Assembly: GCA_977862235.1 (NCBI GenBank)
Contig: OZ374561.1
Location: forward strand, 1 to 64,000
DNA from: Dudresnaya verticillata
Taxonomy: Eukaryota
Length of the DNA stretch: 64,000 bases
Direction of reading: 5' to 3'
The notes under the pieces are model-generated. The model worked only from the letters and a program-made list of their open reading frames with translations. It made no database searches and was not told the origin of the DNA. Below, one piece after another: positions 1,274 through 47,045 of the stretch. Each line of letters opens with the position of its first letter. Position 1 is the stretch's first letter. The position numbers were made by a program, and so were the translations under genes.

Positions 1274-1870
1274 AGACCCCATTCACAGCGGTTCGCGCTT
1301 AAAATGTGCCCTTGATTTGCATACAATTCGTGGGCTGATTTCTTTCACAAAAAATGTTTTGATTCGCCTTGAGCAGTGGCCGCGAGCAAAAATACTGTAT
1401 TTCTTATCATACTTGGTCCCAAACACGTTTTGGTCTCTATCTCCTTAACGAAAACAGAGTTCAGAATCGCTCTTTCTGCACTAGTTCGGTGGGAATCCGA
1501 AAATGTGCAAAATCAGTACAGTGGAGAAGGGTAGCCCAGATGGTACTGTACAGAGCTCTAACCCCTAAACCCCAAAAGAATGCTCCGGCCTCGATTGCAA
1601 GTTTGCAAACGAGGCCGGTCGGTGAATTTGTCGTATAGCAGCTCAGTTTCATACTCGCGACGAGCCCCAACCCGGATTTCGGCTGTCGGCGTGCTAGCGA
1701 CTACGATTTTTCACGTGACAGCAAGTCGAGTACCTATCACTGACAAGAGGTCCGGCCTCAATTGCAAACTTGCAATCGAGGCCGGAGATCGAAAAGCACT
1801 CCAGGACTCCGGTATATGCATACCGGAGCCCGGGTTAGAAGTATAGTTTAAGTTTACAAGTTGGTTATGC

Positions 1871-6235: not shown

Positions 6236-6259
6236 TCAACCCTAATTCCAGCGAAACCA

Positions 6260-7330
6260 CGACAGCACAGAACAGACGAGAAGCACCAGCAGAGTCAGGA
6301 CCAGAAGAAGAGCGGCAGACCAAACAACAGAGCACCACGGAATTCACGACGCGCAGCAGCGGCTGCAGCAGTAGAACGAGCGGGGTAGAGCGGCGCACAA
6401 CCCTAAACCAAAGCAGCGAGCCCAAAGACCAGACCAGCGCGACGACACACCAGACAAAAACCACAGCGCAGCAGTGAAACAGCGGGAACAAAGCACCGAG
6501 GACAACGACCAGAGCAGCGCGACGGCACACCAGACAACAGCAGTAGCGGGTAGCAGCGAAACAGCGGGAGCGAAGCAGGACACTGCAGTAGACCGAGCGG
6601 GCCGGAGCAGCGCACAAACCACGACCAAAGCAGCGACAAAAACGACCAGAGCAGCGCGAAGACACACAACACAACAACCACAGCGAGCAGCAGCGAAACA
6701 GCGGGCGCAGAGCTGGACACAGCAGTAGGCCGAGCGGCCCGGGGAAGCGCACAAACCACGACCAAAGCAGCGACAACAACGACCAGAGCAGCGCGACGGC
6801 ACACAAGACAACAACCACAGGCGAAACAGCGGAGCAAAGCAGAACAACTCCAGACGACAACGGCAGCGCGCGAGCCACCGAAAAAACAGTGTTGTAGACG
6901 CGCACAGCGAGGGCGCGCAACGAGGTAGAGTGAGCACGCTAGGGGCGCCGTGCACGGGAGTGCACACGGACGGTGGCGGGATGTGTAGCGAGCGCGCGGG
7001 CGGTGGCGCGATGTGTAGCGAGCGCGCCGGCGGTGGCGCAATGTGCAGAGGGCACGGCGTCGGGAGCGATATGTAGCGAGGGCGCGGGCGCGACGGCGGG
7101 AGTGCAGTGCGGGGAGCACGCGCGGGCAGGCGCGATATGCTGCAGAGTCCAGCGGCGGGGAGCACGCGCGGGCAGACGCGATATGCTGCAGAGTCCAGCG
7201 GCGGGGTCGCGATGCACAGGAGGGTGGCAGCGCGGAGTGCAATGTGCACGAGGGGGTGAGCGGGTGAGGGGGTGTGCATGCGGAAGGTGCGCGCGTGCGG
7301 TGGAAGGGTTTTTGTGCGGGAGCGCGAGAG
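6260..7330. repeat. GC-rich imperfect subtelomeric repeats upstream of the 1454-aa ORF
   Basis: Recurrent CAGAGCAGCGCGACGGCACAC, GCGCACAAACCACGACCAAAGCAGCGAC, GATGTGTAGCGAGCGCGC and GCGATATGCTGCAGAGTCCAGCGGCGGGG units. Confidence 0.75.
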
Positions 7331-7689
7331 CGCTCTGTGCCTTCCACGCTCTGCCAGATGAGCGCCACATCATCCCGTTGACGCAACCGCCGCCGCCGCC
7401 GCCGCGCAAAAAAACGGCCCAAAAATTACAAATAATAAACGGTCATGACCGTTGCGTACCCTAAACCGGTGCCGCAGTGATCCGGTTCAGACACAATCTG
7501 ACCGTTCACTTAATCTGCCACCACACAGCCCACCACGCGTGCGACTGACCCCTCCTACTCCTCCTCCCTCACCACGCCTCTCTTACCCCATTAGCTCTAT
7601 ACCGCCTTGCTCCTCACCCGCCCGCACCAACCGCTCCCCTCTACCGCTACGCCTAAAGCGCTCGCTCACACCGTCATCGCTCTCCCGCC

Positions 7690-7960
7690 GGGCTGCGCGC
7701 TGTCTCTCGTTCTGTGCTGCCGTCGCGCTCCCGCTCGGTGCTGCGCTCGCCGCCGTCGCTCCTGGGCTGGGCTGTGCGCTGCTTTCTCGCTGTTGGCCTG
7801 TGCTGCGCTGTTGCATTGTGCTGCGCGCGACCCTTTTGTGCTCTACCGCCGTCGCTCCTGGGCCGTGCTGCGCGCTCTCTCTCGTTCTGTGCTGCCGTCG
7901 CGCTCCCGCTCGGTGCTGCGCTCGCCGCAGTCGCTCCTGGGCTGGGCTGTGCGCCGCTTC
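7690..7960. repeat. Direct duplication with a period of about 175 bp
   Basis: CTCTCGTTCTGTGCTGCCGTCGCGCTCCCGCTCGGTGCTGCGCTCGCCGC occurs near 7704 and near 7879. Confidence 0.85.
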
Positions 7961-8954
7961 CTCGATGTTGGGCTGTGCTACGCGCGCAAACCCTGCAGGA
8001 AAAGCGTCTAGGAAGGACAGCCTGTACTGAAGCATGCGGGCCATGCTTGTGAACTGCGATTTCGAGCTCCGGCCTCAATTGCAAGTTCGCAACCGAGGCC
8101 GGGCACGGTTTTCAGGGGCTATTTCTTTCGTCAAGCCACGTTTTGATTGCCAACAGGTATTATGGACCACATCTGTGATCCGGCCTGGATTGCAAACTTG
8201 CAATCGAGGCCGGATCGAAGATGTGGTCTACGCTTTTTTACTGCTCCTTTCGTCAAGCTACGTCTTGGTAACTTGACAAAAGGAAGCGCAATCGGCCTCG
8301 TCAAGCTACGTCTTGGTTGCAACTATGTCTTGGGGAACACATGCGCAACCCAGCCCAGCCCTATTTGCACACTTGCAATTGATGGCGCTTTTCGGTGCTG
8401 TTCCTGCCGTCAATGTCTTTTTCGATGGTAGCTACGCCTTAGAACACATCGACAATGACCCTGGCCTCGATTGCAAGTTTGCAACCGAGGCCGGACATTC
8501 CTTTCGTCTTGTTACACCTTGGTTGCCGCCCGACCTTACAGCACGTGCACACATCCAGGCCTAAGTTGCAAGCTTGCAACCTTAGCCGGACATCCTTTCT
8601 CGGCGTCGTGAGTCTCTGCCGTGATTGCAACTACCCGTCAGACCATATGTGCGCGATCCGGCGTCGATTGCAAACTTTCAATCGAAGCCGAGAACACTTT
8701 TCCGGTTTTGTTTCTTTCGTCTACCTCCGTTCTGATTGTAACTAACCCGTCAGAACGCAAGCGCAGACACACTTTCCCGGTGTCATTCCTTTCATCGACA
8801 CCAGTTTGAATTGCAGGTACGCGTTGGGGAACATGCAAGTGATCCGGCCTCGGTAGGAAACTTGCGATCTAAGCTGTGTATTTATTTCCGGTGCCGTTTG
8901 ACGTATCCGGCCACGATTTCAGATTTACAAACTAGGCCGTAGCTCTCTTCTGTT

Positions 8955-11900
8955 TCAGTCTCGTTGCTGCTCTTCGTCTGTTACTTTCACAACGAATTCG
9001 CAACAGTCCAGAATGCCTGGCGGTTTTAGAACGCGATCGTTCAAAAGCCATTTGGAGAATTCATTATCGGAAAAGTTCCCACTTAGGCCCTTATCCATCA
9101 ACTCCGATAACATCCGCCGTTTCAGGACAGGATTTCTCCAACAGGCAAATGAGGCTACTACGGGCTTCCAGAATGGACACAACGCCCGACTGCTGTATTC
9201 ATTCGTCCCGTCACGCCGTGTGCCGTTTCCGTGGTGCACCCGCTCGCCTCCAAACGTTCTTATCGAACATTCGGTGCATCCTGTCACCTTGGTACCCCTC
9301 CTAGCTATCGGTCTGACTAGGCACTGATATGCGTCGTGCCCAGAGCCAAGACATCGGAGACACCTCCCGCTGTAACAATGAATATTGTGACTGTACGTGC
9401 CCTCCCTGCTCTTGCCAACGCATGGTGGGCATATGCTCTCCATTCGGGAAACAAGTGCGCGGAGTCGGTCCACGTTCCGTTTAACCTCTTCCGTTTTGAT
9501 TACAGTTACAACGTTTCGAGGTGGCGGAGGGGCGTGACAGCGAATATTATGCACTGGGTTGGTCGTACGGCAGTTTGAATCAGGTTCCGTTTCGGCTCCT
9601 CCCAGCAACATATTCGCGCATACATCGCACATGGATGTGCTTTGTGAGTCGTCTCCTCTGCGCTCCCAGCACTCCTCCGTTCCAGCAGGACACCCAAGAT
9701 ATCTTTCCAGTGCCAGTTTCCGGCACGACCTAGTGTCTGTGATCCATCGAATCACGTCATCTAGAAGTGGGATTGCACTGCTATCCGATACATTTGCACG
9801 ATCACGAAAGGAAGGATGGAATAGCACCGTGACGACGCCACGGGACCCATCTCGGCCCACGCGTCCCGCTATCTGTGCCATGTCCAGCATGGTCCTCGTG
9901 CAGCCAAAGATAATCACACGGCGCACATCGGGTGCATCTATTCCGGTACCGAACCCATCCGTTGCAACCATCACAAATATCTTCCCATTGGAGGCGCCCG
10001 TCTGACACCACGTGTCGGCATTTGCCTCCCTCTGCATGTCCGTCATACCACTGTGGTAACGCCTCACCGTCACGTCTGCTTCCCGTATATGCGCCCTGCG
10101 GATCAGACTGCTGCACTCGTCTGCATCGCTTCGCGTGAGAACAGATACTAGGCACTTTCCACCACCCTTGGTCCTGATCTCACGAATCGCCGCGGCAACG
10201 GATTCTTTCAATACGTTTCGAATTTCAAACTCTTCCGTATTCTCGAGATTCTTCACTACGATTGACACGTTGTCTCTTCTCAGAAAACCTCGCACAACAA
10301 CTGTCTTGCAAGGGTCGCATCCATTCGCTGCAATAATGGAATCCTCGAGACACAGCGGTGCCGTGGCCGTCATCAGGACAGTCTGTGCACGTATGCCATC
10401 TGGGCGCACAAGCCTCATTGCCGTCATACAAGACCGGTAGTGCGCAGACTATATAATCATATGCGCTTCATCCACCACAAATCGGCAGAGCAACCTTCTT
10501 GCGTACAAGTTCCCGACAACTTCCACGTATTTCTTGGAATTTACAGCTTCAGGCTGCACAAGCAAAATGCCGCGTTCCAAAGATGATCCCGTCTCTCGGT
10601 CTCGGAGATCATTCAGCGTGTGAAAGACGAGCTCAGCTTCCCGGCACCTCTTCTCAATCTCTTTAGAGAGGGATTTCAATGGCGAAATGAATACTGTCAC
10701 GCCTGCCTCGTTGGTGCAGGGTCCAAATATAACGGCTGTCTTGCCACCTCCCGTCCTCAACACGATCAAGGCGTCCACAGCACCCTCAGCAACAACCTCC
10801 ATAGCTCTTCGCTGTTCCGGACTTCGAAACTGCGCTTCTGGTGTCCTCAGCACCCTTCGGAGGTGTTCTTCTACGTCAACATCTCGCTGGAACGGGAATC
10901 GGATCTCGTCCTCTGCATCCAAATCTTCCGCATTTGCTGTGCTCCCTGGACTTCCAATGCTCATCAACTCGTCTTGATCTTCGGCACTACCCGTGACTTC
11001 ATACATTGGTTCCCCACCCACGCCACTTCCGGACGATGGGTCCGCATTGTTCGTACGAAGGGATTCGCCACGGCTGGGTTCCCGTTCACGGCTGGGTTCC
11101 CGTGGACTACTTGGCGAGGTCAACGGCGCCATGCCCTTCTGTTCTTTCGCCTCCACTCCCACGGCCGGTCCCTGTTCCACACTTGCAATACTGTTCGGAA
11201 CCACTGGATCCATTGAAGTACCTGGCTCCTCAGTGGGCGCCATGGGTGCCTGCTTGTCCGACCTCGGATGTACATTTTCAACCATGTCGGCGGCTGTTCT
11301 ACTACCATTTCCATCTGCTTCGCTACTCGGAGCACAGTCCTCCGTCTCCATTCGATCCATTGCCCACAAATGCAACCTTTCGAAAACGTCCATTTCCCGA
11401 ATTGACCTCCTTCCGTACAGCAACCGCTGAAAGGTCAAGCAAGTCTGTTCACCTACCTCTTTTCCCCCCTTCGGCCTCGATCTCAAGCTTGCAATCTGGG
11501 CCGGCACCATCACTTCCTCCGCTATACTCGGATTCTCCACCGAGGTCAAACAAGTCTGCTTTTCCACCTCTTTTTCGCAGCTTGCAACCTCGGCCGCCAC
11601 CATCACTTCCTCCGCTATACTCGGATTCTCCAACGAGGTCAAACAAGTCTGCTTTTCCACCTCTTTTTCGCAGCTTGCAACCTCGGCCGCCACCATCACT
11701 TCCTTCGCTAGACTCGGATTCTCCACCGAGGTCAAACAAGTCTGTTTTTCCACCTCTTTTCCACCGTCCGGCCTCGATTGCAACCTTGCAATCTCGGCCG
11801 GCACCATCGGTTCCTCCGCTAGAGTCGATGTATGCCTTGTATTATCTATCTCCATGCATACATCCGGCCTCGGCCCCACACCTGCAACCTTAGCGACCGC

Positions 11901-14768
11901 CATCGCCGTGGTTGTTCGAATGTGTTCGGGCACTGGCCGAAAAAGAGATACGTCGGCTGATTCTCGTCTCTTCGTTGCCTTCGGTTGCTCGTCCTCAACC
12001 GGGGCAGGAACTTTCGCGGCACGGCTTCTCCTCATCTTCTTCGCCTTTCTTGGCACCTTTTCTGTACAAGTATTCCCAATTCGGCGCTTCCTCGGTTTGT
12101 TCTTCTTCTCGAACACTGGAGCTTCATCTTCAGCTACAGACTCAAGAGTGTCCCAATCGTCGTGGCCGACCAACCCGCAGTCCCTATGCCAGTCATTCGT
12201 GGCCGCCAGGAACAACTTCATACTGCGGTCGTCGACCACGCCCTCGCCACCAATGGTCGAGACGCACTTTCCATAGTGCTGCTCAGCAATTTTCCTGCTG
12301 TGCCCACCTTGCAGCTCCAACGTGTGACCTACGTTGGACTCTTCCTCCTCATAACATTCTACACCTCTCTTCAGTGCAAATAGTACTTCCCGATTTGTCT
12401 GTGACTTGTCAATACTGTAACCGCCAAACCATTGCCGGTGCTTCTCCCCGTTGTATCCTTGTGGAAGCCCATATCGATTCCACTGGCTTGCCATGACCTT
12501 TAGAGCGTCATTCCTCATCGGGACAGTTGGAAGAAGGTAATCGTAACTGTCCTTCTTGACGCTCCTGCCGAGGTATTTCATGAGTGCTACTCGCAACTCT
12601 ACCCCAAGAAGAACCACGGCCTTGTACAAGTTACTGGACACCACATCGGGATGCTTGCTCGTGAACTTCATCATACCTTCCTTCTGCGACCTGGTCTTGC
12701 TGTGACTCGGTATGCAAGTCAATCTGGCCCCACCGTGAATTTGGAACCCCCTCGGGCCACTCCCATTGTTCCTGGTTGCCATGAATCCCACCTCCGATCC
12801 GCGAGCAACATTTCCCCCAGACAGATGGATGCATGCACAAACTAGCTCCACAGACTCCTGTATAAGGGATAGCATACTCACAGCTCTCTTGTGCGCCTCT
12901 CGAGCTGGAAGAATTCCGAGTTGACCTATCGCTCGTCTCACACACGCACGGCAGTCCATCACAACATCTCGATTTCCCTCGTCTTCGAAAAAACTGTACG
13001 GTGACTTGGTCTCCTTAGGGTTCTCGATGACGACGGAGAGTCTCTCCTGAAAGTCTTCTGGAAGAATAACCCCGTTCATGAAGCCCTCGTTCGTTGTTAT
13101 GAGCTCCAATATCCTCCGTTGCATACGTCTCACACATCTTCCAATGCGCTTCGCGCTCATATGGATCCCAAGCACAAACCCACAGTGTTCCTCCTTGTGC
13201 CTCGGATCATCACACACCGTCCATGTACACCGCGAACTCTCCGAGCTTCTATGCTTGCGAGTTTTTGCCGCCAGTTCCTGCAACACATGGATACCGAGGT
13301 TGCCTCCAGACCTGTGATCTTTCCGAAATCTCTCAACCTCCTCGTCGGAATCCCCAGAAGATGGCCAGTGCACGATGGAGATAATTGCACAGCAGCCCGC
13401 AATGTATGCCACTGCAGAAAGTGTGGGGGAAACTTCTACACCTCGCGACAGAGCGACTCCTCTCTCTGTCAGTCGCACTCCCAAGCAACCACAAATAACA
13501 CTTGCTGCTGTTATACTCCCGGATTGTACGCTACTCTTCTCGTACAGAATGGCTTCGAGCAACCGATGTACAGCCCGCATGTGATCCCATTTGGTGCCCG
13601 GCCTCGATTGCAAACTTTCAATCGAGGCCGTGCGCGGTCGTTCGGTGCGCGATGCTTCCACCTTCCGGACAACTTCCTTTGCGGCGTCTACAATCTCTTG
13701 GGAGGTGATTAGTGTCGTCTCCTGACACAAACGGAGAGTCATTACCAGTACCTCGGACATCTCCCTCCTGTACCTTTGTTCACTTTCATCACGGATCCAT
13801 CGAAACTCCTTCTTCCTATCGCAATCCATGCCAGGGGGGGCCCTCACGGCGAGAAGTATCCTGGTCGATCCCATGTTTGGCCTTGTGCCCGCAGCACGAG
13901 CAGTTCTGCAAATCTTCATCAGGGTGTCATTGAACCACTTGAGAACTTTCGTCTCAGGTATGCGGAAGACTGAGCGGCTCTTGTGTGCCTTGGCACTCAT
14001 TTCCGCAGCCTTCTGAATGCTGATCCCAAGCTCTTTCAGTTTCAAATCCGCCCGTGTGTCAAATGCAAAGTTTCCCATGGCACTCAAACGCGGCTCCTGC
14101 GAAAGAACGGAAACTTTTCTCTCCTCCTCAACATCTTCAAGACAGTGGATGATTCCTTGGGCAACACTGTTGGCCACGTCGGATGTAGATCTACTCCCTT
14201 CATCACCGTCTTCTCGTACAAAGAAGTATTGTCCACCTTTTTTGAATAGTTTCTGAGCCTTTTCCGGTCGTACTTCTTTTCGAAGATCGGACAAGGTAAC
14301 GTTCTCCATCGCTTGCACGTGCTTCTCGCGGTAATGCTGGTAGAGACCCCGTATCGTAGGGCTGCTATGGTGGCATACGCGACACGGGTACACCTCAACC
14401 ACAGGGAGAAATGACAGTGGCCGTACTCTTCCTCTGCATTCATCATTTTTCACGGTGGAAAAGTAATGCTCACGTTCCGTCTCGGTGCAGCTCGGTACAA
14501 CGGAGGCCTTCACTTTCTGCAGGGAAGTGAACAGACCTCGATTTTTCTTCCCCTCGGCAGGCTTTTCGCATCTCCGAATATGATTGCGAAAGTTTTTTAA
14601 TTGCTCTTTCCCAAGGTATATCCCAGACCTGCACCTGCGGCAAAATGGATGTGAGATCTCAGGTATGATTACAACCCCACTTTCCGACAGTCCTTCTTCC
14701 GCCTTTCTAAGTTCAGAAACGGACTCAGCTGTTACATCAGCTTCCGATGCAGTCATCTGGAAGGGCAA
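8955..14768 (-). pseudogene. Telomere-linked helicase-like gene, copy 1: Zn finger + tyrosine-recombinase-like domain + RecQ (SF2) helicase; one in-frame TAG at 10449-10451
   Basis: ORFs 10449..14768 and 8955..10427 are in one frame (DEAHMII*SAHYRSCM; copy 2 reads DEAHIILLSAHYRECM). Helicase motifs: LRTGGGKT, DEAH, MTATAP, ATDGFGTGID, QIAGRVGRDG, RecQ Zn-binding CR...C...CDVC. YR-like motifs: GGNVARGSE, HSKT, KHRQW, QGGHS-x7-HY. Confidence 0.88.
11435..11810 (-). repeat. 93-bp (31-aa) coding tandem repeat in the recombinase-helicase linker, containing family A sites and half-sites
   Basis: KEVEKQTCLTSVENPSIAEEVMVAAEVASC repeated about 3.5 times; AAACAAGTCTG at 11548, 11641 and 11734. Confidence 0.9.
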
Positions 14769-17700
14769 AGAATTGCGGATGCAATGTTCGTACTCGGTTT
14801 CCGTGTACTTCTGCCGGTCGGCCTCGATTGCAAGCTTGCAATCGAAGCCGGGTCCTCGGATTCCGTTCTACTCTGCCGCTCAAGTCCAACAGCCTCCTTT
14901 CTTGTGGCCGTCGGCCTCGGTTACAAATTTTCAATCGAAGCCGGTTGCCCCACAAGTTCACAGAGAATATCCGCTTCTCCTTAGAGTTCAAAACGGGCTC
15001 TTTTGCAAGCTAACAACTGTGTTCGTCCCCAAGAAATGGCCAGGGCTCTATTGTAAGCTTGCAATTGTGCCCGGTTTTCAAACTCTCGTGGAGACAAGGT
15101 CGACAATTGCCAGTACCTACGCAGGCAATTACAATTACAAGTCGACTCGGGCAATTGGACGATGCAGTGGATCCGACGGTGCGCTTGCCGGAATAGTTCT
15201 GCGTTGCTCGGGTCACGTCGGACGCGCAGAAAGGAAGGGAAGAAGGCTCGGTGCAGGGCAGAACGTCAAGGAAAGAGGTTAGCGATCGCAAATCGAAATG
15301 TTAGGCACGTCGAGGGTCGAAAAAGAAGCGATAGTTGAGCGGCTTAGGGTCAGGGGGGTGTTTGTCTGCATCGTGGGGAGGCCATGGGCCTCACAACTGT
15401 CTGTCACACTTATGCGCAACTGCCGTCGATATTTTGGCGGGAAACCGAAACAGGGCCAGCTTGCCCTCCTGTATGTGAGATCCCTGTCTGGCGGGAATCT
15501 TGCGCAACCTCGCTCTCCTGACAAGTGTTTCAATTACGGTGCCGAATAGCAGTTTGCGACCAATGCCTGGTGATGCTTCACACCTATCGTATCAATGCGT
15601 TTCGGTACGTTTGGAAACTGCCGCCAGACGCACGCCATCAGACTTAAACCCCAAACTGCAGTCGGTGGTCGTCCCCTCCCCCTCCCCCTCTCTCCAGAGA
15701 CACCGACCCTAGCCCACAGTTCAACACCTCCCCGCAGCTTCCGCGACAGAGTCACCCCGGAGCTGGCCTGCTTCACTGCCCCATACGATTCCCGTCGCCG
15801 TCGGGCGCAGCCGTGCGCACTAACCTAATCCACAGCGATCCGATTCGGATATGATCTACTTCTGTTTGGATCCCATTCGGATCCAATTAAAGAAGCAGAT
15901 CATATCCGGCCTAGGTTGCAAACTTGCAATCGAGGCCGGATGGGAAAATCCGAGGCATGATGTACGTATTATCCCCCTCACTTCGCGATCTCTTCGTCAT
16001 GACTTACATTTCCCACTCAATAGAGTTCGCAAGGGACCTGTGTCAGCCCATTCACACCCTCCGGCCACGATTGCAAGCTTGCAACTTAGGCCGCAAAGCC
16101 CATTGGGCTGTGTGGAGCATGCTTTCCATCCGGCCTGCATTGAAAACTTTCAATCGAGGCCGAGAGGGCTGGAGTGCGTTCGAGTGCGCTGTGTGGAGCA
16201 TTCTTTCTATCCGGCCTGCATTGAAAACTTTCAATTGAGGCCGGGAGGGTTGAAACGGGCTATACGGAGCATTCCACCGCACGTCCACGTCCAGTGCTCG
16301 GGAGAATACGTAGACATTAGTCCACGTATTCTCCCGCTCACTACGCGATCTTTGCTAGTAAAGGACTTCCTTCCTCAGTGTTGTCGCTGGTGTTTCGATA
16401 CCCAGACAATGGATGCCTTACTGACTCGTTGTATGCCCACACCTGGTTGCCTGCAAACCTGCGGGTGGTAGAGTTAGCAGTCACCACACTTGTTTCCTTC
16501 CCTGGACTTGTTGCGCATTACATGTCTACAAGTACGGAACTGAATGTGCTGAATGCTTCGTACGGTTGTCGGTCTAACGGGACATGCGGGACGGTGCCAC
16601 GCGCCCCGTTGCATTGTGTGCGCCCAACCCAATGACACACTCCCCACAGAGTTTGTTTCCGGTAGGCTTACAGGTTTATTTGCGCGCGCGCGCGCTTTTC
16701 CCGCTCTCGATTTTGTATTTCGTATTTTGGACCGCATGGATGTAGCATGCGTGCACACGCAAATCGATATCAGCACTGCGTGCTCGACACGCGCACTGCG
16801 CCTGCTGTGTTGGTTGGCCGAAAGCAGCACGGAACCGTGTGCGCTCCGTGCCTCACAGTGTGTATTCGCCGTTAAGCATGAAGTCGGCCCTCACGGGGTC
16901 AGGAAGGCCGTTATTAAGCATGGAGTCGAAACGAATCGGCCAATGCTGGCCTATAGAGATACCCCCTCACAGTAGTTCGTATTGCGCGACGCGGTCCTTA
17001 ACGGAATGTTGATTTGTAATTAATCTGGGCGTTTCGTCTCCATGCTTAACCCCGGATTACATATAGGGAGACTCCGCGCGGGATGTCACTCGCTTGCAGC
17101 TAATGTTTACATCTTCTATCGCGACGATGCGATACATGCAAGAGATAAACATTGCCTCCTTGGGCTGATTGCAGAAAAACCGCTGCTGCTGAAGGCTGAG
17201 CTACGCAACTCTCGAGACGTACGAGACGTCAGCGCTTTATTGACATCAACGGACCTTGCAAGCATGTCTGGGGCCGATAAAATGACGTTATAGTGCGCTA
17301 GTGTGGTTCGCGCGTGGCTTACGCGTATTGTCCTCTACTCAGACAAGCTGCTGAATGCGGAGCAATCGCGCCCAGGAGGGCGTGGGGGAAGTCGTGTCTT
17401 CAAGAAGCTCACTCGCACGGCTTTTCAATTAACAATGGACGTGGTGCAACCATCAATGAAGATGACTTATGCACGATTGAGCAATGGCCGATTTTGCGTA
17501 ATTGTGGCAGATATGTTACACGAGCAGCCATTGCTGGTTTTGTCACAACTGCAGACTGACAACAATATCATCAGAGGTCCTCACAACGCAGGCCGCACAT
17601 ACGCAGAGTCATCTGCCACGCAAGTTTCTGCTAGTACTGAGCGGGTGGCAGGAACGTAACAAGCCTGCCTTTCCGTCCTTTGCGATAACAACTGCCATAT

Positions 17701-20700
17701 TAGCCCGTTACTACGGGTTCAGAGCTGCCTACTATTGTATCCTGGCTGCGAGACTGTTTGTCAGTTTTAGTCGACTCAGGTGAACCGACGCAACCAAGGA
17801 AAGACTATGAAAGCCCCAGGCAGTCCGCGATACCACCTTTCTCTTGCACAGTGCCCTCCTATTGATATTCTTGACTCCGGGCTTTTGGTGCTTCACTGGC
17901 GAATAGCGGTGCCAAGGCGCCTCAAAGGGCTGCAGCTCTACTGCATTACACTCCAGCCAGCGCCTGAACCCCATGCTAGAAACAAAAGAGTGGAACAAGC
18001 TGCTCCAAGCCCTGGAGATCACGCTATAATCCGATCCGTCTCCTATAGTTGCGGCACTAGCCATTCACGAGCCCTTCTAGCTCGGTCATCCAAAGCACCT
18101 CATATGCTCCCGCGCCTTTCTTCTCGCCACCTACATTCCCCCTCCCCTGCAGTACACCTTTCGCACCTTGCAAATATTCCCAACTGGTCTTGAAGTTAAC
18201 CCCGCTGCGAAAATTCCACATAAGCGCCTCAATCCCATTTCGCAAACTATCTAGCCCAGTGCCAAACCTCGCCTTCACCTCCTCAACTCCCGCCACGCTA
18301 TCGCTGTGAATCTCCTGTGCGAACGCATCTGCCGAAGCGCAACAGTGTAAGTCCCATGCAGCACATCTCCCTTCCGCAACACTCGGTCCTTTGCCTGCAT
18401 CAGCCTATCTACTCCATTCCGTCATCGTCAAGTCCGCCATGACCTGCCGCCGCGTACATCTCCCGAAGCACATGCTCCCATTCCACCGCTTCTGCGCAAA
18501 AACGAGCTTTCCACACGCACGCTGCGCTTCGTACCATGCCCACACCTCCCGGCATGCCGCCGTATGCCGCACACATGCGCAGTGCACCCACAAGGTCCCT
18601 CCCGAGCCCTTGTCCGACATATGCACCGCCCTCTTCCCGCCTGCTCCGCACGGCTACGGCATCGCGCCCTCGCACAGCAGCAAGCTGGTGCGCAACGCGC
18701 GCTACAAGCGCGAGGTCGGCCAAAGTGGATCGAAAGCCTTTCGAGCCGGCCGAGAGGAGGAAGACCAGCTCCGGGTAGGCGGGATGAAGCAGGGCGCCCT
18801 CGAGCTTGAGGATGGTGAGCCGGCGGAGGGCGTCGAATAGGGAGCGGGTCTTGCGCGTGAGAGTGATTGCGAGGCGTGCTGCGGGGTACGCTAACCCGCG
18901 GCGAATTGCTTTCTGCAAGCACAGAGCGCAGGATGGAGTGCGGCAGACGCGACGCGGGGCTTCCCCCGCTTCAGCGAGGCGTTGTGTGCAGTTGCCCGTC
19001 CCCAACTACACTGAGCTCTCACCGAATGCACAACACAACTATTCTGTCAGCGTAGGAAAGAAATCGAGGTACATGGACCAGGGCTCACTCCCGGCAATTC
19101 ATACAGAAGTTCCCATTGCGCGTTCTCGGTCACGAAACAGCGCAAGCGGCTTGTTATGTGCGGCAGCCAGAGCCGTTTCACCAACCAGCAGGCCTATTCC
19201 TGCTAGAGCATCACGTGGCGGAGAAACTTGCGCCGGTGAAGGCAACACCCGGCTTTGGCCCAGAGAGATCTGTGTTGCATACGCGTTGACTTGAGAATGC
19301 TTCGCAGTAACGCGCATGACAATGGTGTTTCGTCCGGCAAATTGCGTAGCGCTGATCTGGCTCATGCCGTAGTGCTATGGCGGAGGGCTGCTGCCGCTGT
19401 AGTCCATTCGAGTTGGAGTACAGTGCTGGTCGCTGGTCATCAAGACGGCTGCGTCACGGGTTGGTTTGGTTTGGTTTGTAGGCGACTGCTGCACACCAGC
19501 CCTATACGGACCGAGTGCTCGTGAGACGAGGCGGTGCCTGCACCGCGCGCGCACCTGCCACCGCATCGCTAACCACGCTTCAGCACGAGCGCCTGACGCT
19601 CTATATCACTCGCCAGCCCATGCGCCGAATAGATTTGTCGCTGTGCCAAGACCTGTTTGGCCTTCGTGTGCGTCCTAACACCCACTTCCTCATCGTCGTT
19701 ATTGCCCAGTTGCCCCCTCTCACCTTTCGAGATAACATAGATAGCCGGCCTACACTCAGTCCTGCGTTCACCCTACCGCTGGACACACTCACTCGCTCCC
19801 CGTGTCATCTATCCGACAGCTCGCTGTCTGGCTGTCACCTGCTCACTTCCGCGCCCTCTTCCACTCTTGCCCATTTAACGAAGCAGCCTGTTGTCAAGCT
19901 GTCAGTGTCCAACAATCCGCGCTCTTCGGAACGGCGTCATCGGCAACTGCATACAGAAACCCTTTGGACGAGAATAGGGTACTGTAGCGGGGTATACATC
20001 TAGTACAGGAAAGGGCCTTAATGCCCCCATCCATTCCCGAATCCCTGTCCACAACAGTAGATGTCAACGCTCATTCTCATTCCAAACTGTTCTAAAACTT
20101 AACAGCCGATGCTGAGTGCGAGTTGGACTACATGCACAGCACAGCGACAGGAGGCGGAGCAGCCGATATGCTGCATGGCACCGCAGCCGCTAGCGTATCC
20201 GTAGTTCTGAACGCGAATATGCGCCATGCCCTACACCGTCACGTGATCATTCCTATCTTGCTCCCGCAGGACACCAATACGCTGCGGTACGGTAAGCCAT
20301 AAATCAGCGGGGTCAGGTAAGTCCTGGCAATTATCCGTACGCTAAGAGGAAGCCACGGGGGCAGTAGCCAGAGCAGTTGCGGTTGATTACACACGCAGTA
20401 CATCCAATTCACTCGAAACCTTCCCAGGTCCCTCGCGCGGGGTCGAATGCATCGTCTGGCCGTCTTATGGCACCCTGCATTACTCGAGAGGCTACTCGGG
20501 CATAGCACACTGCTGACCCGGTTTCGAAAGTTGAGAACGCGTTATTAGTTTCACTTCTTCTTCGCCCTCTTCCACACTTGGTCCTTTAACCCAGAAGCAT
20601 GTCGCCAAGCGCGTACGGTGCAGCATTCCGCGCGCTTCACAACGGCGCCCGTGGCAACTGCAAAGCAACCATCGCGTTGATGAAACTGTCATTGTATGTC

Positions 20701-21201
20701 ATAAACATGGCGCCACAGTGAGAGTAACTGCGCGTTCCACGTACGGTAGGACACCTGATCCCGTCGCGGCAACATCGTAGCTGCAATTCGTTTCATGTCC
20801 TATTGCTGCATATCAAACCCCGTTACAAAATGCGAGCTGCGTAAGGTGTCAATTGTTCCATCAGCTTGCATCTTGAGTAGACAACTACGGCTGCTGGTCA
20901 GTTCACTGTAGGGCTGCCACCTGATCGTCCTGCCAACCTCTTTGGCACAACATGCCCCTGTCGCAGCAATATTGTGTTTGCAATGCACTTGATGTCCGAT
21001 TGCGGTAGATCGAATGGCATTACGAAAGGCGAGGTGCGTAACGTTTCAATTGTTCCACCAGATTGCAATCTGCACATGAGACGCTGGGCCATTTCGGAAG
21101 AGGGCATGAGAAGAACTTTCAGCAAGGCGCAGAAAGACTTGTTGTTGATTAGTAAGCTCATGCAGTAAGGAGCGGTGAGAACGTTGTCAACTCGAGCAAC
21201 T

Positions 21202-21335
21202 CCAGGCACAAGTGCCGGGGAGTTGCTCAATTTGCAGGCGGCGCAGTTCACCACGCATAGTGTTAGACCAGGCACAAGTGCCGGGGAGGTGCTCAATTTG
21301 CAGGCTGCGCAATTCACCACGCATAGTGTTAGACC
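21202..21335. repeat. 66-bp direct tandem duplication
   Basis: CCAGGCACAAGTGCCGGGGAG...CACCACGCATAGTGTTAGACC occurs twice (21202 and 21268). Confidence 0.85.
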
Positions 21336-22400
21336 CTGAAACTCGCCGTCGGGAGGCAGGCCTGCCCTTTCCGGTTCAATGTATTGGTAGGTGCCACGGG
21401 TATGAAATCTGCTTTCACATACAGTTTCGACACCACTGGCGGGAGAAAGCCGAAGCCCACGCAGCAAACCAAGCTCCCACACTGCTAAACCAAGCTATTC
21501 GACGCCCTTCCCAAAAGGCGACAAACGGCTTTGCCACGGTCTCGTCATGCAGCAGAGCCGTCAGACGGTTTCACACAGCCAGATTCGCTGCAATCTTGAC
21601 CAGCCCCAGTGCGGCTGCGTTGCCCATCGGTAGCGATGCGTGGGAGTATTTCTGGACTGGGGCGGGATTTGGTCGCGGCACAACAGCGCCGCTCCAGCGA
21701 CCCGCAACGGCGGCGACGATGTGCGGGCATCGTCGCGGGTGTCAGGTGGAGTTGGGAGCGTGGTGCGCAGGGGGGTTGTGCAGTGCACTTGACGGCGGTG
21801 ACCGTTGCAGATCTTGAGGCAGCCGGGCGTGGTGCGCATGGACAACAACACGTGTATGCAGCGGTCGTTGGAGGTGCGGGTGCTGCAGTCCGTTTCGAAA
21901 CTTTACAACTTTTCTGAACATATTGTAGCTTGCCCTAAACGATCGGAGATCAGTACTACAATGCGACGCCGGTAGGAGACTCCTCTCCACCCTACTATCG
22001 ACTGCGCGTGGAAACCAACCTCTACCCTCGCACTACCCTCACTCTCACCTCGCACTACCCAAGCTCCAACCTCAACCTACCCTGCTTCTTCTAACCTCGC
22101 GCTTTCCACCCCACTCTGGCGCGATCGACCCATCCTAGCGCGCGCGACCAACGTCCTTTTACCATTACCGCTTGCACCGTACGTCCGCGCGTTTTGCATT
22201 ACATCTTCCCCGACGACGGCGATATTACGATCACTCGCAACTGGCGCGCTCTGGTATTCGCGTTACGCTTGTTATCGTGTCAACACGTGCACACGGTGTG
22301 CACGTGTTGACACGAGAATGCGCGTAACACGAATACCAGGGTTGCCACGTGGACACGTATGCCTTGCATGCTTTCCGGAACCGTTTGCTGTTCTGCTTCC

Positions 22401-25400
22401 GCAGAAGCAGTAGAAGCACCGTGACAGCTTCCACAGTCGCGTCCCTGCGCGTCCCGCGGAAGCCGTCGCAACTCCACTACTCCTTCCGCAACGGATGCTT
22501 GCCTTGCCTCCACCTACTAACAGCTACCATCTGACCGCGGAAACAGTTGCCTATCTACATCTTTTTTCGCAACCATTAACTGTCATCTGCGCATTTGCTA
22601 ACACTCCCAGTCTGTCTGCGGAGCCCGTCGCAAACCTATAACTGCTTCCGCTGCATTCTCTCACTTCTCTAGCGCCTCGCGTCTTTCCGCAGATTCCGCA
22701 GCCGCCTCCACCATTGGTATCTTATACAACCTCCTTCTCCACCACCTCCTGCTCACCGTCCCGCGCTGCAACTTCGTTGCAGTTATTTACCCACTCCCGC
22801 GTCAAAAACTAACAATCATTCCTTTACTTCTATTCTCGCTTCACTTTACATATTCAAGGGACACACAGGTACGTGCTGGAGTCGCGTTCTTCACATTTCT
22901 ACAACCCAAAAACCTCCACAGCATAGCGACAAAACTCTAGAATTCCGGGGCACCATCCCGGTTTGTCTACGAGAAGTTCCTCGCAAAACTGTTGCAGTCC
23001 TGTGCATCTCCTGAATCTCTGCATTCCCGTATGCTTCTTCATCTCCTCCCTCCACCGCTGGTTGTTCCACATCATCAGGGCCAGTTGCATAGGCCTATAG
23101 AAGGGACACCGCTCCGAAGATCCATACTCGTTCTGCCCCCGCAGTGGACTACCGCTACCTACATGTGTCTTCTTCGAACCAAAGGTCTTCATCGAACATT
23201 CAGAACACCCGTTCGAAAAGAGCCCCCTCTTCGACTTCCAAGGCCGCATCCCGCACTGTGTGGCCCTGTGCCCTGACTTCATGCAGCGAAAGCACAGTCC
23301 AAAGCTACAGACTCTGCAATGCTCCTTCGACTTCACCGCTTCAAGTCCGGCTGCATCCCCGGGTCTCGAACGCCCCCAGCACGGCGCGCATACCGTTCCC
23401 AGCTTCATCGAGAGATCCCGTAATTCTTCCACCGCATCCATGGCTCCGCTCGCCGTCCGAACAGCAGCCACCACGCTGTCCTCCGGAGTACACTGTACGT
23501 CCAGACTCAACTCAGGTGCAGCTTGCCGCTGATTGCCCCCGCCCTCAGCTGGCAACAGCTCCCCACTCGAATCACTGTCGTCGGTATCTCCCGCCAGCTT
23601 CTCCAGGTGTATCTGCGTCGGACTCGCATACACACCCCCGGTCGAGGCCAAGAGTACCGACGAGGCCTCCTCCGGGACTGGAGCAGGCTTGGCACATACA
23701 TCGCACAACTGTACGGTCTCGTCTGGCAGTGTGGTCACACGCTCCGTACAGTTTCTCGGTACCTCCGGGCATCCCAGGTATTGCTCGATGGCCACACTTC
23801 GACACCGCCCCGTTTCTTCGGCCCATCTCTGGAATCGCTTAAGAGCCATCAGACCCTCCGTGTCCCTTACATTTGCACGGTCCCCAAACTCACGGTGGTA
23901 CAGTACACTCACAACCCCGCTCTTTCCATCCCTTCCAACCCGCCCGGCAACTTGGTACAGCTCCAACAGTGAACGGGTGCTCCCAACAATCACTGTCTTT
24001 GACACGTCAGGAGCATCAATTCCCGTCCCAAACCCTTCCGTAGCAATCATCACGCAAACGGTAAGCTCCCCCGCCCTCCCCCACTTCCACTGGGACACAC
24101 TCCGCCGCCGCGCAGTATCATTCATCCCACTGTTATACTTCGATATCACAACCCTCCGGGATGCTTTAAACTCTCTCCTCGCGCAAAGGGCTGCATGCAT
24201 ATCATCCGCTTCACCCTTAGTAAGTACACACACCAGAACCTTCCCCCCCGCGCGCTCGGAAAAGGCCAGGCGTACCCCTGCCATCACACTGTCATTAACA
24301 CACCCCATCACTTCTTCATCCTCCGCACTGGACAGCAGGTGCACACTGTACAGTACATTGTTCCGCCGCATGCTTCCACGAACAACCTCCGTGTCCCCAA
24401 CATTCGCACCACAGGCAGAAATTATCCTGTTCCCCATATGCACCGGGGCTGTGGCTGTCATCATTATCAGAGGGACACGCACGCGAGCCGGTCTCGCGTG
24501 ACGCATCCGTAACATGCACTCCCGATAGTGCGCGCTCAATAGGATAATGTGAGCCTCATCCACAACAACCCTCATCAACTTCTTGTTCTTGTGCAACACG
24601 CGCAGAGCAGCCTTGTATTTCGCCAAAGACACATGCTCTGGCGCGGCCAGGATTATACCTTTGCCGAATATTTCCATCTGTTCGTGATCATGGACGTCTT
24701 CGAAATCCAAAACGGGCAGCATGATGCTGTCGCACCGCTCTCTGATCTCCTCACGCAACGCACGAAGGGGGCATATGAAAACAGTCACCCCTTCCTCGCG
24801 CAATGCGGGCCCAAAAATAACCGCAGTCTTGCCAGCCCCCGTCCGAAGTACAATTAACGCGTCCCTCTCCCTCCTGACAACAACCCTCATTGCATCCTTC
24901 TGTTTCTCACTCTTGAACTCAGCCTCAGGATCTCCAACCGCTTCCTGGAGACACTCAACCAAACTCCATCGGGTCTCAGGTGACACGTCTTCATCAGACG
25001 ACGAATACTCTCCCCTCTCACTTTCCAGCCTCTCCTTCTCATTAATTTGACGAACGTCCTGTTCGTAAACATCCATTCTCTTTCCGATATCGGAAAGAAA
25101 CCCGACCAGCTTGCTTAAGAGCTCAGGGTCCCCCGCCTTCGGCTTCCCATCCCTCTCCTCACCCTCACTCCGTCGAAGACCATGAACGCCCTTCTCCGCA
25201 GCAGCAGCATTCACTGCGTTCACACCATCCCCCCCGCTCTGCCCCCGTCCCTCCCCTCTCTCTCCTTCCCACGCCACCCCTTCACTCACGCCCACGGTCA
25301 CCGCGTTCACATCCCTTGTCCCCGCCGCCGCACCCCGTTCTTCCGTTCTCTCTCCTTGCGACCCAGGCACTTCACTCGGGCCTGCTGCGCACCTCCCCCT

Positions 25401-28400
25401 CCGCCTCCGTCGGCGCAAGAACATCTCCTCCTCCATCACTGCGAATTTGAGCTTCCGACGCTTCCCGGTACCTTCCATGACTTCCGCATCCGCGGCCCAT
25501 CGAACCCTCTTCTTCCCTCTCTCTTCACGGTTGCCGCCGCTGTGCGTGCCACTAGCACCACCGGCTGTATCCACCAATACCCTCACATCCCCCTTCTGCA
25601 GCTCTACAGCACCTCTTTCAGTGCGCGACGGCGGTCGAGGGACAACTTCTCGCATTCCCTCTGTCCCATTCCCGCTTTCAGCCTCCCCATCACCCTCCAA
25701 ACGACCCATTTCCGCTCGGGGCACCTGTCCCGCAAAGCTCGGAGAGCCTGGCGGCAGTTGCAATTCCACATCTGCATCCGGCTCGCTCCCACAATTCCGA
25801 GATCCGAGGGACTCCGGCAGCTCCGGAAGCAGTTCCAAATCAATATGTGCTTCCGGGTCGCTCCCACCATTTCGAGATCCAAAGGATCCGGGAGCTCCGG
25901 AAGCAGTTCCAAGCCGATATCTGCTTCCGGATCGCTCCCAGCATTCCCAGATCCGATCAAACCCGGAAGCAGTCGCAACCGATCTTCTGCTTCCAGCTCG
26001 CTTCCATCCCTGCTCACTCCCATTTCATCTTCCATCGCTTCCCCAAACAGTTGCCTCCTAACCCCGCCCCCTCGCCCCGATTTCTTCTCCTGTTTGCGCC
26101 CTTCTGCCTCCGACTCACGCTCCTTCCGACTTCCGCCGACACTTCCCGGAAGCACTCGCAACCCGGCAACGACTTCCGCAACGGAAATGCTTCCACACTC
26201 CACTCCTCCCCCGCTCGCTCCCCCCAACAACTGCCGTCGAACCCCCAAGGGCCCGACCGCTTCCTCCCTTCGTCTTCCACAATCCGTACCCGAGGCCTTT
26301 CCACTTCCTCCAAAGTCCTCGCCCTCCTCCTCGTCGGCCACAATTTCATTCCAGTCGACGTTGCTCGCCAACCCACAGTCGAGGAGCCACCCATCTGAAG
26401 CTCGCTTGAAATTCTTCATTCTTCGGTCGTCGATTTGCCCCCCTCCGGCAATGTTCGGTGCGCATGCCCCATACAGCGTCCGAGCCACCTCCATCGAATG
26501 CGCTCCCTGCACCTGCAGCACATTCCCGACAGCCCCGCCGCGCATCGCTTCCTCCTCCGATTGTTCCTGCGGAGTATTGCTCAACACCCTCGCTACAACC
26601 CGAAAGTCAGCATCCTCGTTCGCCTTGTCATTGGCATACCCGCCAAACCACTGCCGATGCATTTCGGCACTGTAATCTTCGGGCAACCCAAATTTCCTCC
26701 ACATGCTGGAGGCCATTTGCAAGCACCCGTTTCGAGCGCTCTCAGTGGGCATCAAGTAATCGTAAGCACCGTCTTGATCCACATCTTGGACCCTTCCTGA
26801 CCCTCCCCGTTGCAGATGCCGGGACAGCGCCAGGCGCAAGTCCATACCGACAAGAATCATCACCTTGAGAAGATTGCTTGTCACCACATCCGGGTGCTTA
26901 CTGATCACCCGCATCTTCCCTCTCTTCATGTTCCTGGTCTTGTCGTATGTCGGAATAACGGCGACCCGAGGTCCACCGGGAAACTGTATTCCTCGCGGTC
27001 CACTTGCCGTGTTCCTCACAGCCAAAAAACCCAGCTCCGGACCCCGGCACACATTGCCTCCAGACAAGTGCATGCAGGCCACAACAAGCACATTGAACTT
27101 CCTTCTAACAGACAGCATCTCCCTCGCCCGCTTGTCGAAAGCTCCGTCAGAAAGATGATCCATCTTCCTCACTGCCTCACCCACCAAATCTCGGCATTCC
27201 CGAGCAATATCCCCATTCCGTTCATCGGCCATGAACCCGTACGGGACCAGCTTCCTCGTCGTGTGGTCCACAATCTGGGACAGTCGCCCCTGAAAGTTCG
27301 TTGGCATCTCGACCCCTCCCAGAATACCATCCGCTCCAAACATCAGCCGCACCGCCTCTTTTTGCATCTTCTTCACGCAATGGCCAATCTCCTTCGGACT
27401 CATGTGCAGCCCCTCCACATATCCACAACACAACCCGTCGTGTTTCAGGTCTTCGCAAGGCATCCACGTGTTCCTCGCATACTCCTCATTTCGAAACCTT
27501 CGCGCCTGCAAACAAAGAGACTGGAGAAAGTGAATTCCAAGACTCCCGCCAGCCTGATGCCTCACTTCCACCCTGGCCAACTCTTCTTCACTCGTACCCT
27601 CCTCCGGGCTGCATATGTCCATCAACGCACAGCAAGAGCTCGCATACGCAAGCGCAGCAAGAACCGGGGACACATCCCTCCCTTGCGAGAAAGTAACACC
27701 CCTCCCTGCCCGCTTCACGCCGAGACAGGTTGTCAGGACATCGGCAGCGCAGAAGCGACTACCCTCATCCACGCTTACCTTCTCGTATAGCAAAGCCCTC
27801 AAGAGGCGGTGCATTGCTCGGACAGCTTCAGACCTCTTCCCCGGAACCGGTCGCAATTCGACATCTGCTTCCGCGTCCCGGTTCTTCTCCTCCAGGTACA
27901 CAACCATCACCTTCGCACAAGCATCCCGTACTTCTTCACTACCGATCAACCCTTTCGCAGATTCAGGCCCATCCGTCATCCGCAAAAGACCCAGTGCCAC
28001 ACCTGCCACCGATGACGCATACCTCTTCCTCGATTGCTTCTGCACAAGCACAAATTCGTTCTTGTCCGTCCTGTTCGCACCTGGCGGAGCTCGAACAGCC
28101 AGCAACACTCTGGCCATGGACATATTTGGCCTTCCAAAGCACAGCCGCCCAGCCTCGAACAGCGAAAGAACAGTCTTCGCCAACCACTTTTTGAGATCCA
28201 CCTCATCGGCTCCACAAACCATCACCCCCCCGCTCGCTTCCCCACACAGCTTCGCGGCCTCCTTCATGGACATTTTGAGCTGTTCAAGCTTCAAGTCCGG
28301 CCTCGTTGCACTCGCAAACCCTCCCATCTTCCTCACATCCTTTTCCACAGGCTCTTCCACTTCGACTCTTTCCTTCTCGACCTTCTTGAGCTCCTGCAGA

Positions 28401-44569: not shown

Positions 44570-44590
44570 CTCCTTCAGCCGTCCTTGATG

Positions 44591-46135: not shown

Positions 46136-46882
46136 TGCCTCTGTGTCCTCATCTTCGACGTAGCTAACACTAATTTCGCCGGCTACAGAATTTCCAAAAC
46201 AGAACAGAATTTTTTGAGGGTCCTTGAATCCAGGCGTTCGATAGCGCGTTGGAAAGGGGCGCTACCCTGAGAACAGTGGTGCAAACAGATCGGAGCAAAC
46301 GCTAATAGTTTCGGAGTTATGCGCTCCGGTATATGGCCCCCCCGGGGTCGAAAGTTCCCGAAACTTGTGATTTTTCCGAAAAGTTCCAATTAAAAATTCT
46401 CCAGAAATTGATTCTGGCCCGTCCCGCCGCCCGCGCCCCCGCCCCCCGACCGCACACCGCATTCTGGCGACTTCCCGCCGCATTCCGACGCGCTCGGACT
46501 TGGCTTCCCACCGCATTCCGACGTGCGCTCGGCCACCTCCCCACGTCCGACAGCCACTCCCACCATCACCCTTCCTGGTGCTGCTACTGGCCCACGCATT
46601 CCGCATTCTGGCGCGTGCGCACACGCTCTGCTTCTGCCTTGCGCGTAATGAGGCGCGCTTCCCCACCCCCTCCCAGACCCGTAGTGCCGCTCCCCGCCCC
46701 AGTCCGGCCTGTGACCGCACTCTGTCTCACGCTCCCTGCCGTTCACCGACACCTCGCCGTCACCCTTCCCCACGCTCCTGCGCACCGCGCCCTGCCGCAT
46801 TCTGACACGTCCACATCAAGTTGCCGCATTCAGGCGCACGGTCAGCCCCTCGCAGCAGTCCCCCGACACGCCTCCTTCACCC

Positions 46883-47045
46883 CTACCCCGCTCCCGTGCG
46901 GCACGGCCACCCGCATTCTGACCCGTCCTCACAACTGGGCCCACTACCCGCCCGACCTGGTACCACTACCAGGTAGCTCAGCCGCTTGCGCACCCGCGGT
47001 TCGGACTTAACTTGTGGCGTAGACGGGCGCTACAGGCGTCGAATG
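46883..47045 (+). repeat. Left arm of a ~160-bp inverted repeat (TIR); it may extend further left toward about 46165
   Basis: CTACCCCGCTCCCGTGCGGCACGGCCACCCGCATTCTGACCCG...CTACAGGCGTCGA is the reverse complement of 58626-58784 with few mismatches. Confidence 0.92.

What the first reader, a model, noticed from the sequence alone, without database searches (positions are those of the whole stretch)
13598..27874. A cognate site occupies exactly the same codon position in both paralogues despite different site sequences
Seen: copy 1 reads TASIESLQSRPG-TKWDHMRAV-HRLLEAILYEK (A site, 13598-13631). Copy 2 reads AEADVELRPVPG-KRSEAVRAM-HRLLRALLYEK (B site, 27841-27874), with identical spacing to HRLL. 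Both genes also carry site clusters in the linker between the YR domain and the helicase. Inference: the site position is ancestral and its sequence was converted to each lineage's consensus. This points to a maintained function such as autoregulation or a recombination switch, rather than random palindrome insertion.
Basis: partly seen in the sequence, partly recalled or inferred. Interest (0 to 1): 0.85.

Follow-up and report, generated by a model that had tools for sequence, protein, structure and literature searches.

The report
Self-marking palindromes in telomeric recombinase-helicase genes
Two distantly related genes near a chromosome end each carry, at the same codon, a 34-base palindrome matching their own surrounding repeat family; it is likely an inherited docking site for the gene's own predicted recombinase-helicase, which would give a long-unexplained telomere gene family a testable enzyme-target pair.

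Summary
Observation confirmed. The window is a eukaryotic chromosome end with two telomere-linked-helicase-type genes (zinc fingers, predicted tyrosine-recombinase fold, RecQ helicase; about 38-40% identical, synonymous sites saturated). Each lies in its own array of 34-bp palindromes (A: 26 sites; B: 16). Both focal sites start 63 nt before the His codon of HRLL, in the same phase, and each matches its own family (12 of 12 and 9 of 12 diagnostic bases). They add about one site's length to a surface loop that is the family's main insertion hot spot; same-codon chance is about 1%. No third member of this clade was found, and 0 of 12 outgroup loci have a palindrome there, so the position is clade-specific. 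A probably fungal clade repeats the pattern elsewhere: one homologous intron holds the cognate site in three different families, though one element keeps a non-cognate site there. Best reading: the arrays are binding sites for each element's own protein, and the in-gene site was inherited and tracked specificity drift. A dedicated switch at this codon is not supported.

The parts
3..1272 (+). Telomere, (CCCCTAAA)n, about 155 copies
1585..16244 (.). Array of family-A 34-bp palindromes, 26 sites, none above threshold elsewhere in the window
1871..6235 (-). ORF X, 1454 aa, no known family; six A sites in frame, one (4063) in its non-repetitive middle
8955..14768 (-). Copy 1 gene: two C2H2-like fingers, predicted tyrosine-recombinase core-binding and catalytic domains (aa ~270-870), linker, RecQ-type helicase; one in-frame stop at 10449-10451; points toward the telomere
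13598..13631 (.). Focal A site, codons 380-391 of copy 1, in a low-confidence loop (376-391) between two helices
11165..12008 (.). Copy 1 linker cluster: two strong A sites (11471, 11768) and six decayed ones, all in frame
14818..16244 (.). Upstream A cluster, 7 sites, the nearest 50 bp before the ORF start
22401..30006 (.). Array of family-B 34-bp palindromes, 16 sites
22899..29029 (-). Copy 2 gene, same architecture; one frameshift within the 74/75-bp linker repeat near 25823-25897
27841..27874 (.). Focal B site, codons 386-397 of copy 2, same register as in copy 1
25748..26179 (.). Copy 2 linker cluster, five B sites, in frame on either side of the frameshift
29132..30006 (.). Upstream B cluster, 6 sites, followed by a 21-bp tandem array (30040-30492)

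Best explanation
Each subtelomeric element carries its own family of 34-bp inverted repeats, which are likely binding sites for the element's own predicted recombinase-helicase, and the site at the shared codon was probably inserted once, in frame, into a tolerant surface loop in the common ancestor of the two genes and has since tracked each protein's drifting specificity. SHOWN: the arrays are private to each element; the focal sites share register and phase and match their own families; the loop is longer than the family norm by about one site; the domain has a predicted tyrosine-recombinase fold with conserved R, K, R, H, Y. INFERRED: a dimer binds the two half-sites on double-stranded DNA and so marks the element along its length. 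It would nick or strand-transfer there while the RecQ domain unwinds, letting the unit copy itself onto chromosome ends and ignore the neighbouring family. Selection for occupancy, probably helped by occasional copying between sites, would keep the in-gene site current. The in-gene site is one member of the array, kept where it is tolerated (a loop here, an intron in other clades), not a dedicated switch.
For: Same 63-nt offset and phase; diagnostic bases 12 of 12 and 9 of 12. Four-fold sites between the genes are saturated (41 of 149 identical), yet third codon positions in the sites match the family at 10 of 11 and 8 of 11. Loop excess +15 and +13 aa over the family median. Sisters, UFBoot 100. 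Fold: residues 508-869 match archaeal Xer (Z 8.4, rmsd 3.6, 166 aligned) and Cre (Z 6.7), and three integrase rows extend back to residues 270-278. R656, K691, R778, H823 and Y832 are kept in 42, 42, 36, 37 and 38 of 45 aligned sequences, the rest mostly gaps. The two arms do not co-vary in A or B (p 0.33 and 0.68), as expected for duplex binding rather than hairpin selection. 8 of 21 metagenome loci, all in one clade of 10, carry private palindrome families, four families in all. One homologous 48-63-nt intron holds the cognate site in 5 of 8 loci spanning it (L039, L044, L040, L041, L043; three families; 23-34 bits with the site left out of training in the four scored, null 99th percentile at most 3.4); chance per intron about 0.1. 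L038 and L048 have neither a clear family at the gene nor a site in that intron.
Against: No binding or activity was tested, and which domain binds (fingers or recombinase) is unknown. No third member of the clade was found. 0 of 12 outgroup loci have the site. The loop is the top insertion hot spot (9 of 48 long insertions), so independent insertion is not excluded. L050 keeps a site of its relatives' family in intron 1 (23.9 bits) while its flanks and intron 2 carry another family, so tracking can lag or fail. 11 of 21 loci outside that clade show no family, 6 of them under 4 kb. Both genes here have one break and may be dead. The fold Z-scores are middling and Foldseek found nothing. Evidence of copying between sites is borderline (p 0.047).
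Confidence: 0.62

Rival explanations
1. Ancestral position but no function at this site: the array is homogenised by gene conversion or recombinase-driven exchange, and the in-gene copy rides along neutrally in a loop that tolerates any peptide.
For: The focal sites are no better conserved than other family members (rank 10 of 26 and 13 of 16). The copy 2 site shares 10 of 12 central bases with linker site 25748 (p 0.047). The peptides differ freely between the copies.
Against: Six linker copies in copy 1 have decayed to 2-9 bits and L050 keeps an unconverted site, so homogenisation is not automatic.
Confidence: 0.14
2. Two independent recent insertions landed at the same codon because this turn is the most tolerant spot in the core.
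For: 9 of 48 long insertions in homologues fall in this bin; 16 of 81 proteins have more than 65 aa here; pLDDT below 50 at 376-391.
Against: Same-codon chance is 0.7-2.3%; both copies have nearly the same excess length; the intron case shows positional inheritance across three families.
Confidence: 0.1
3. The site is an intragenic crossover point, as in archaeal SSV-type suicidal integrases: recombination there splits the gene between the fingers and the catalytic domain, switching it off or making hybrids.
For: The site lies upstream of the catalytic domain in both this clade and the probably fungal one. Precedent: attP inside the integrase ORF, with specificity switching (PMC7253208, passages). 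The 13+8+13 geometry resembles loxP/FRT (recalled).
Against: No split copy in the window. Trees for exon 1, the core-binding part and the catalytic start agree on supported splits in 7 loci. B spacers differ in 15 types among 16 sites, whereas tyrosine recombinases need matching spacers (recalled). It is one of 16-26 sites, not a unique att.
Confidence: 0.07
4. The in-gene site is a dedicated autoregulatory operator or transcription roadblock, looping with the promoter cluster.
For: Sites also cluster just upstream of the gene here (50 bp) and in L039, L040, L041, L043 and L050. Every family-bearing locus that spans the region except the partial L045 has a cognate site inside the recombinase-coding part.
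Against: The position differs between clades; ORF X has in-frame sites too; the promoter cluster would suffice. No expression data were available.
Confidence: 0.07

Closest known systems
Telomere-linked helicase (TLH) genes and TLH-containing regions (Magnaporthe oryzae, PMC1635262, passages; Fusarium oxysporum, 10.1101/2024.02.27.582403, parts 1-2 of 4 plus term search)
   Same: Two N-terminal C2H2-like fingers, a conserved middle domain and a RecQ helicase; subtelomeric, 3' end toward the telomere; repeats upstream of the gene; telomere-repeat remnants inside. Magnaporthe HAR-D holds a conserved 23-bp imperfect palindrome.
   Different: The Fusarium paper does not contain 'recombinase' or 'palindrom'; the Magnaporthe paper has no 'recombinase'. 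Here two divergent families share one chromosome end, each with a private dispersed palindrome array reaching into coding DNA. No direct comparison with a named TLH protein was made.
Tyrosine recombinases with two-armed sites (Xer/dif, Cre/loxP, Flp/FRT)
   Same: Predicted fold, R-K-R-H-Y residues, 34-bp inverted repeat; family B has conserved arms and a variable centre.
   Different: Fused to fingers and a helicase; the His of HxxR is not conserved; dozens of sites per element; no shared asymmetric spacer; sites in the probably fungal loci are 24-26 bp and symmetric through the centre.
SSV-type suicidal integrases of archaea (PMC7253208, passages)
   Same: A site translated as part of the recombinase gene, upstream of the catalytic domain, changing sequence as specificity changes.
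   Different: Their att is a single tRNA-derived site and integration splits the gene. Here there is no tRNA, many sites, and no split or hybrid evidence.
Rickettsia palindromic elements (PMC10969869, passages)
   Same: Palindromic repeats inserted in frame in protein genes.
   Different: RPEs are ~150 bp and scattered through unrelated genes; these are 34 bp, confined to their own element and matched to it.

Membership tests
Telomere-linked helicase (TLH) | Subtelomeric location, gene pointing to the telomere | tested here: met
   Telomere at 3-1272; both genes on the minus strand, 7.7 and 21.6 kb inside
Telomere-linked helicase (TLH) | Two N-terminal C2H2 motifs | tested here: met
   CxxC...H motifs visible in both; Pfam C2H2 hits below cut-off; homologues hit PF12013 above cut-off
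Telomere-linked helicase (TLH) | C-terminal RecQ-type helicase | tested here: met
   DEAD and Helicase_C above cut-off in both; RecQ_Zn_bind weak in two homologues
Telomere-linked helicase (TLH) | Homology to the published TLH domain | not tested
   No named TLH sequence was in hand; only the architecture and probably fungal relatives were compared
Telomere-linked helicase (TLH) | Near-identical copies at many chromosome ends | not testable with these tools
   No genome is held for this window
Tyrosine recombinase superfamily | Catalytic fold | tested here: met
   Xer Z 8.4, rmsd 3.6, 166 aligned; nine of the top ten rows are recombinases, integrases or type IB topoisomerases plus one more such row. 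Z is middling; model mean pLDDT 71
Tyrosine recombinase superfamily | R-K-H-R-H/W-Y residues | tested here: inconclusive
   R, K, R, H, Y conserved; the first His is not; assigned by order and fold, not by superposition
Tyrosine recombinase superfamily | Site-specific cleavage through a 3'-phosphotyrosine | not testable with these tools
   Needs biochemistry
SSV-type suicidal integrase | Site inside the recombinase ORF | tested here: met
SSV-type suicidal integrase | Single tRNA-derived att site | tested here: not met
   16-26 palindromes per element; no tRNA in the window
SSV-type suicidal integrase | Gene split or hybrid at the site | tested here: inconclusive
   None in the window; no incongruence in 7 loci; genome not available
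Protelomerase / telomere resolvase | Protelomerase fold and a site symmetric through a hairpin-forming centre | tested here: inconclusive
   Not among the 50 rows listed; no central co-variation in A or B, some in one other family

The most novel reading that the evidence does not exclude
Telomere-linked helicases are an unrecognised class of self-targeting eukaryotic mobile element. An active tyrosine recombinase fused to RecQ cuts its own palindromes to copy the unit onto chromosome ends. Co-resident families are insulated by orthogonal sites (A versus B), and each keeps a cognate site hidden inside its own gene (loop or intron) as a built-in crossover or shut-off point, a eukaryotic counterpart of suicidal integrases.
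Probability: 0.2. Interest if true: 0.9.

Novelty: new variant of a known kind. Interest (0 to 1): 0.7.

Why it matters
TLH genes sit at most chromosome ends in several fungi, and their middle domain has no assigned activity in the papers read. This locus supplies a candidate enzyme and a candidate substrate twice over, in one nucleus, with different sequences. A two-by-two binding and cleavage test (protein 1 or 2 against site A or B) would show whether the domain is a site-specific recombinase and how such units spread. The shared in-gene site also records specificity drift inside the coding sequence, and orthogonal 34-bp site-enzyme pairs could be useful tools. Searches that found no such description in print: 'telomere-linked helicase' + 'tyrosine recombinase', 'tlh1' + 'tyrosine recombinase', TLH + subtelomer + palindrom + helicase + recombinase, and (listing only). 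The library lacks most subscription papers, including the 2009 paper that defined the TLH domain, which was not seen.

Tried and rejected
No whole genome is held. Word-based protein search: no hit. No sequencing run was listed, so no reads were laid. DNA scans with no relative: viral contigs, metagenomes with the close-clade patterns, prokaryotic genomes. One search returned 29 loci matching the helicase part only; they were not used as homologues, and two served as background DNA. A two-sequence structure model was unusable (pLDDT 35). Foldseek against PDB and viral structures gave nothing at E <= 0.001. A protein-only test of palindrome codability had little power (copy 2 itself is only in the top 6%; 1 of 89 homologues reached 15) and was not relied on. 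Hairpin or RNA-structure selection on A and B was rejected: no arm co-variation, no Rfam match in 1273-36000. The L048 'family' is a 28-bp tandem array 6-7 kb upstream, the L031 pair is a duplicated gene fragment, and the 4-site L038 cluster is weak; none was counted as a site family. The weak B-like hit at 27044 (6 bits, other phase) was treated as chance. A regular-spacing idea was dropped: gaps of 2.6-3.1 kb exist over the helicase. The telomere-motif paper search returned irrelevant papers, so the host stays unidentified. PMC10799480 had the terms only in its references. Supplements were not consulted; those of the Fusarium preprint are closed and could bear on repeats in those regions.
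Full report
SETTING. The window starts with about 155 copies of CCCCTAAA, so it is a eukaryotic chromosome end; the host was not identified and no genome is held. Two long minus-strand genes (8955-14768 and 22899-29029) encode C2H2-like fingers, a conserved middle region, a low-complexity linker and a DEAD/Helicase_C module. Copy 1 has one in-frame stop and copy 2 one frameshift in a linker repeat. The cores are 38-40% identical and four-fold sites are saturated (41 of 149). This is the architecture and orientation described for telomere-linked helicases (PMC1635262, passages; 10.1101/2024.02.27.582403, parts 1-2 of 4).

THE OBSERVATION. Profile scans found 26 A sites between 1585 and 16244 and 16 B sites between 22401 and 30006, with none of either above threshold elsewhere. 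The two consensus sequences agree at 22 of 34 bases. The focal sites score 51.7 and 29.9 bits on their own family with the site left out, and negative on the other. Both begin 63 nt before the His codon of HRLL, in phase 0. At 12 diagnostic positions they follow their own family 12 and 9 times. The B site is a poor palindrome on its own. All 15 above-threshold sites in reading frames use the same phase.

THE PROTEIN. A profile search gave 147 homologues. None is as close to either copy as the copies are to each other: at most 31% over the alignment, with higher values only in short catalytic-core fragments. The copies form a clade with UFBoot 100. A 15-sequence model (mean pLDDT 71) matches tyrosine recombinases over residues 508-869 (Xer Z 8.4, Cre 6.7), and three integrase rows extend back to residues 270-278, which places the focal loop in the predicted core-binding domain. 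Foldseek found nothing, so the fold call rests on middling Z-scores plus conserved R656, K691, R778, H823 and Y832. The site occupies residues 380-391, inside a low-confidence loop (376-391) between two helices.

IS THE SHARED POSITION CHANCE? Between the flanking anchors, 59 of 81 homologues have at most 48 residues, against 54 and 56 here; 6 have 49-65 and 16 have more than 65. The site is therefore an in-frame addition of about its own length, in the bin with the most long insertions (9 of 48). Weighting by those hot spots, two independent insertions would share a codon 0.7-2.3% of the time. One ancestral insertion is much the likelier, but not proven.

Twelve map the HRLL position. None has a palindrome there: 2-7 of 13 arm pairs in register, best nearby pairing within the null, and no own-family hit above its shuffle maximum. 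All are outgroups, so this refutes universality but not ancestry within the clade. Scans aimed at closer relatives found nothing.

AN INDEPENDENT REPEAT OF THE PATTERN. Eight of the 21 loci (L039, L040, L041, L043, L044, L045, L047, L050), all in one probably fungal clade of ten, have private 24-26-bp palindrome families clustered upstream of the gene and in the linker. L044 nearly duplicates L039, and L045 has only two sites, recognised by cross-match. Eight loci span a homologous GT-AG intron of 48-63 nt near copy 1 residue 313. Five hold their cognate site in it, across three families in proteins only 32-51% identical over the flanking exons; the chance per intron at upstream density is about 0.1. 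L038 and L048, which have no clear family at the gene, have no site there. L050 is the exception: intron 1 holds the family of its relatives L039 and L041, while its flanks and a second intron hold another family. The same relatives' family also overlaps a coding stretch of unchanged length near residue 570 in L039, L041, L045, L047 and L050 (12-18 bits; null 99th percentile 3.4, maximum 15). In-gene sites are thus inherited by position and usually, not always, match the current family. The other 11 loci show no family; 6 of them are under 4 kb.

MECHANISM. The arms do not co-vary in A or B, which fits a protein reading two half-sites in duplex DNA. A host factor is unlikely, because two different families are confined to two elements in one nucleus. 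The gene common to all family-bearing elements is this one, so its product is the likely binder (inference). I commit to this: the protein marks its own unit, nicks or strand-transfers at these sites, and with the helicase copies the unit among chromosome ends; selection on binding, with some copying between sites (borderline, p 0.047), keeps the in-gene site current. All steps beyond the sequence pattern and the predicted fold are untested. A crossover switch like that of SSV-type integrases (PMC7253208, passages) is possible but unsupported: no split copy, congruent trees across the intron site, heterogeneous B spacers.

NOVELTY AND VERDICT. TLH regions and their repeats are known. A recombinase fold, private palindrome arrays and positional tracking inside the gene were not found in the searches named. 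Earlier unchecked notes of this scan reached similar readings on other genomes; they are leads, not support. Observation confirmed; interpretation partly supported; new variant of a known kind; interest 0.7.

Noticed in passing
window 22251-22339: Single near-perfect hairpin (44-nt arms, z -11.5) 60 bp before the first B site; could be an element end or a replicated hairpin junction.
   Followed up: partly
window 16301-16334: Single 13+8+13 palindrome unrelated to A or B (12 of 13 pairs), just past the last A site; no second copy in the window.
   Followed up: partly
window 1801-1834: Another single palindrome (11 of 13 pairs, z -3.8) just inside the second A site.
   Followed up: partly
window 1559-1573, 6401, 7459, 21933, 35635: Short telomere-repeat remnants; the first lies 11 bp before the outermost A site, and others fall near likely unit boundaries.
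   Followed up: no
window 1871-6235: 1454-aa ORF with no Pfam hit and no Atlas match above 0.77, carrying six in-frame A sites; a possible cargo or partner gene.
   Followed up: partly
window 6351-7983: GC-rich, strand-skewed repeats (137-, 175-, 30- and 46-bp units) between ORF X and the downstream A cluster.
   Followed up: no
window 30040-30492 and 33802-34294: 21-bp and 20-bp tandem arrays upstream of copy 2, placed like the helicase-associated repeats of Magnaporthe.
   Followed up: no
window 32608-32700: Minus-strand fragment that reads like the start of ribosomal protein L3 (recalled resemblance, not searched).
   Followed up: no
window 38160-46261: Retrotransposon-like ORFs with protease, reverse transcriptase and integrase motifs (by eye).
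   Followed up: no
window 46883-58784: Long inverted repeats (81-95 nt arms) enclosing a DUF7869 ORF and a 648-aa ORF with a weak methylase hit; a possible DNA transposon.
   Followed up: partly
L045, L047, L050: These elements carry two site families at once; their main family resembles that of L043 more than that of their sister L041, suggesting a specificity switch or a mosaic.
   Followed up: partly
L031:428-3727: Homologue with the first catalytic Arg replaced by Gln and no palindrome family; possibly inactive.
   Followed up: partly
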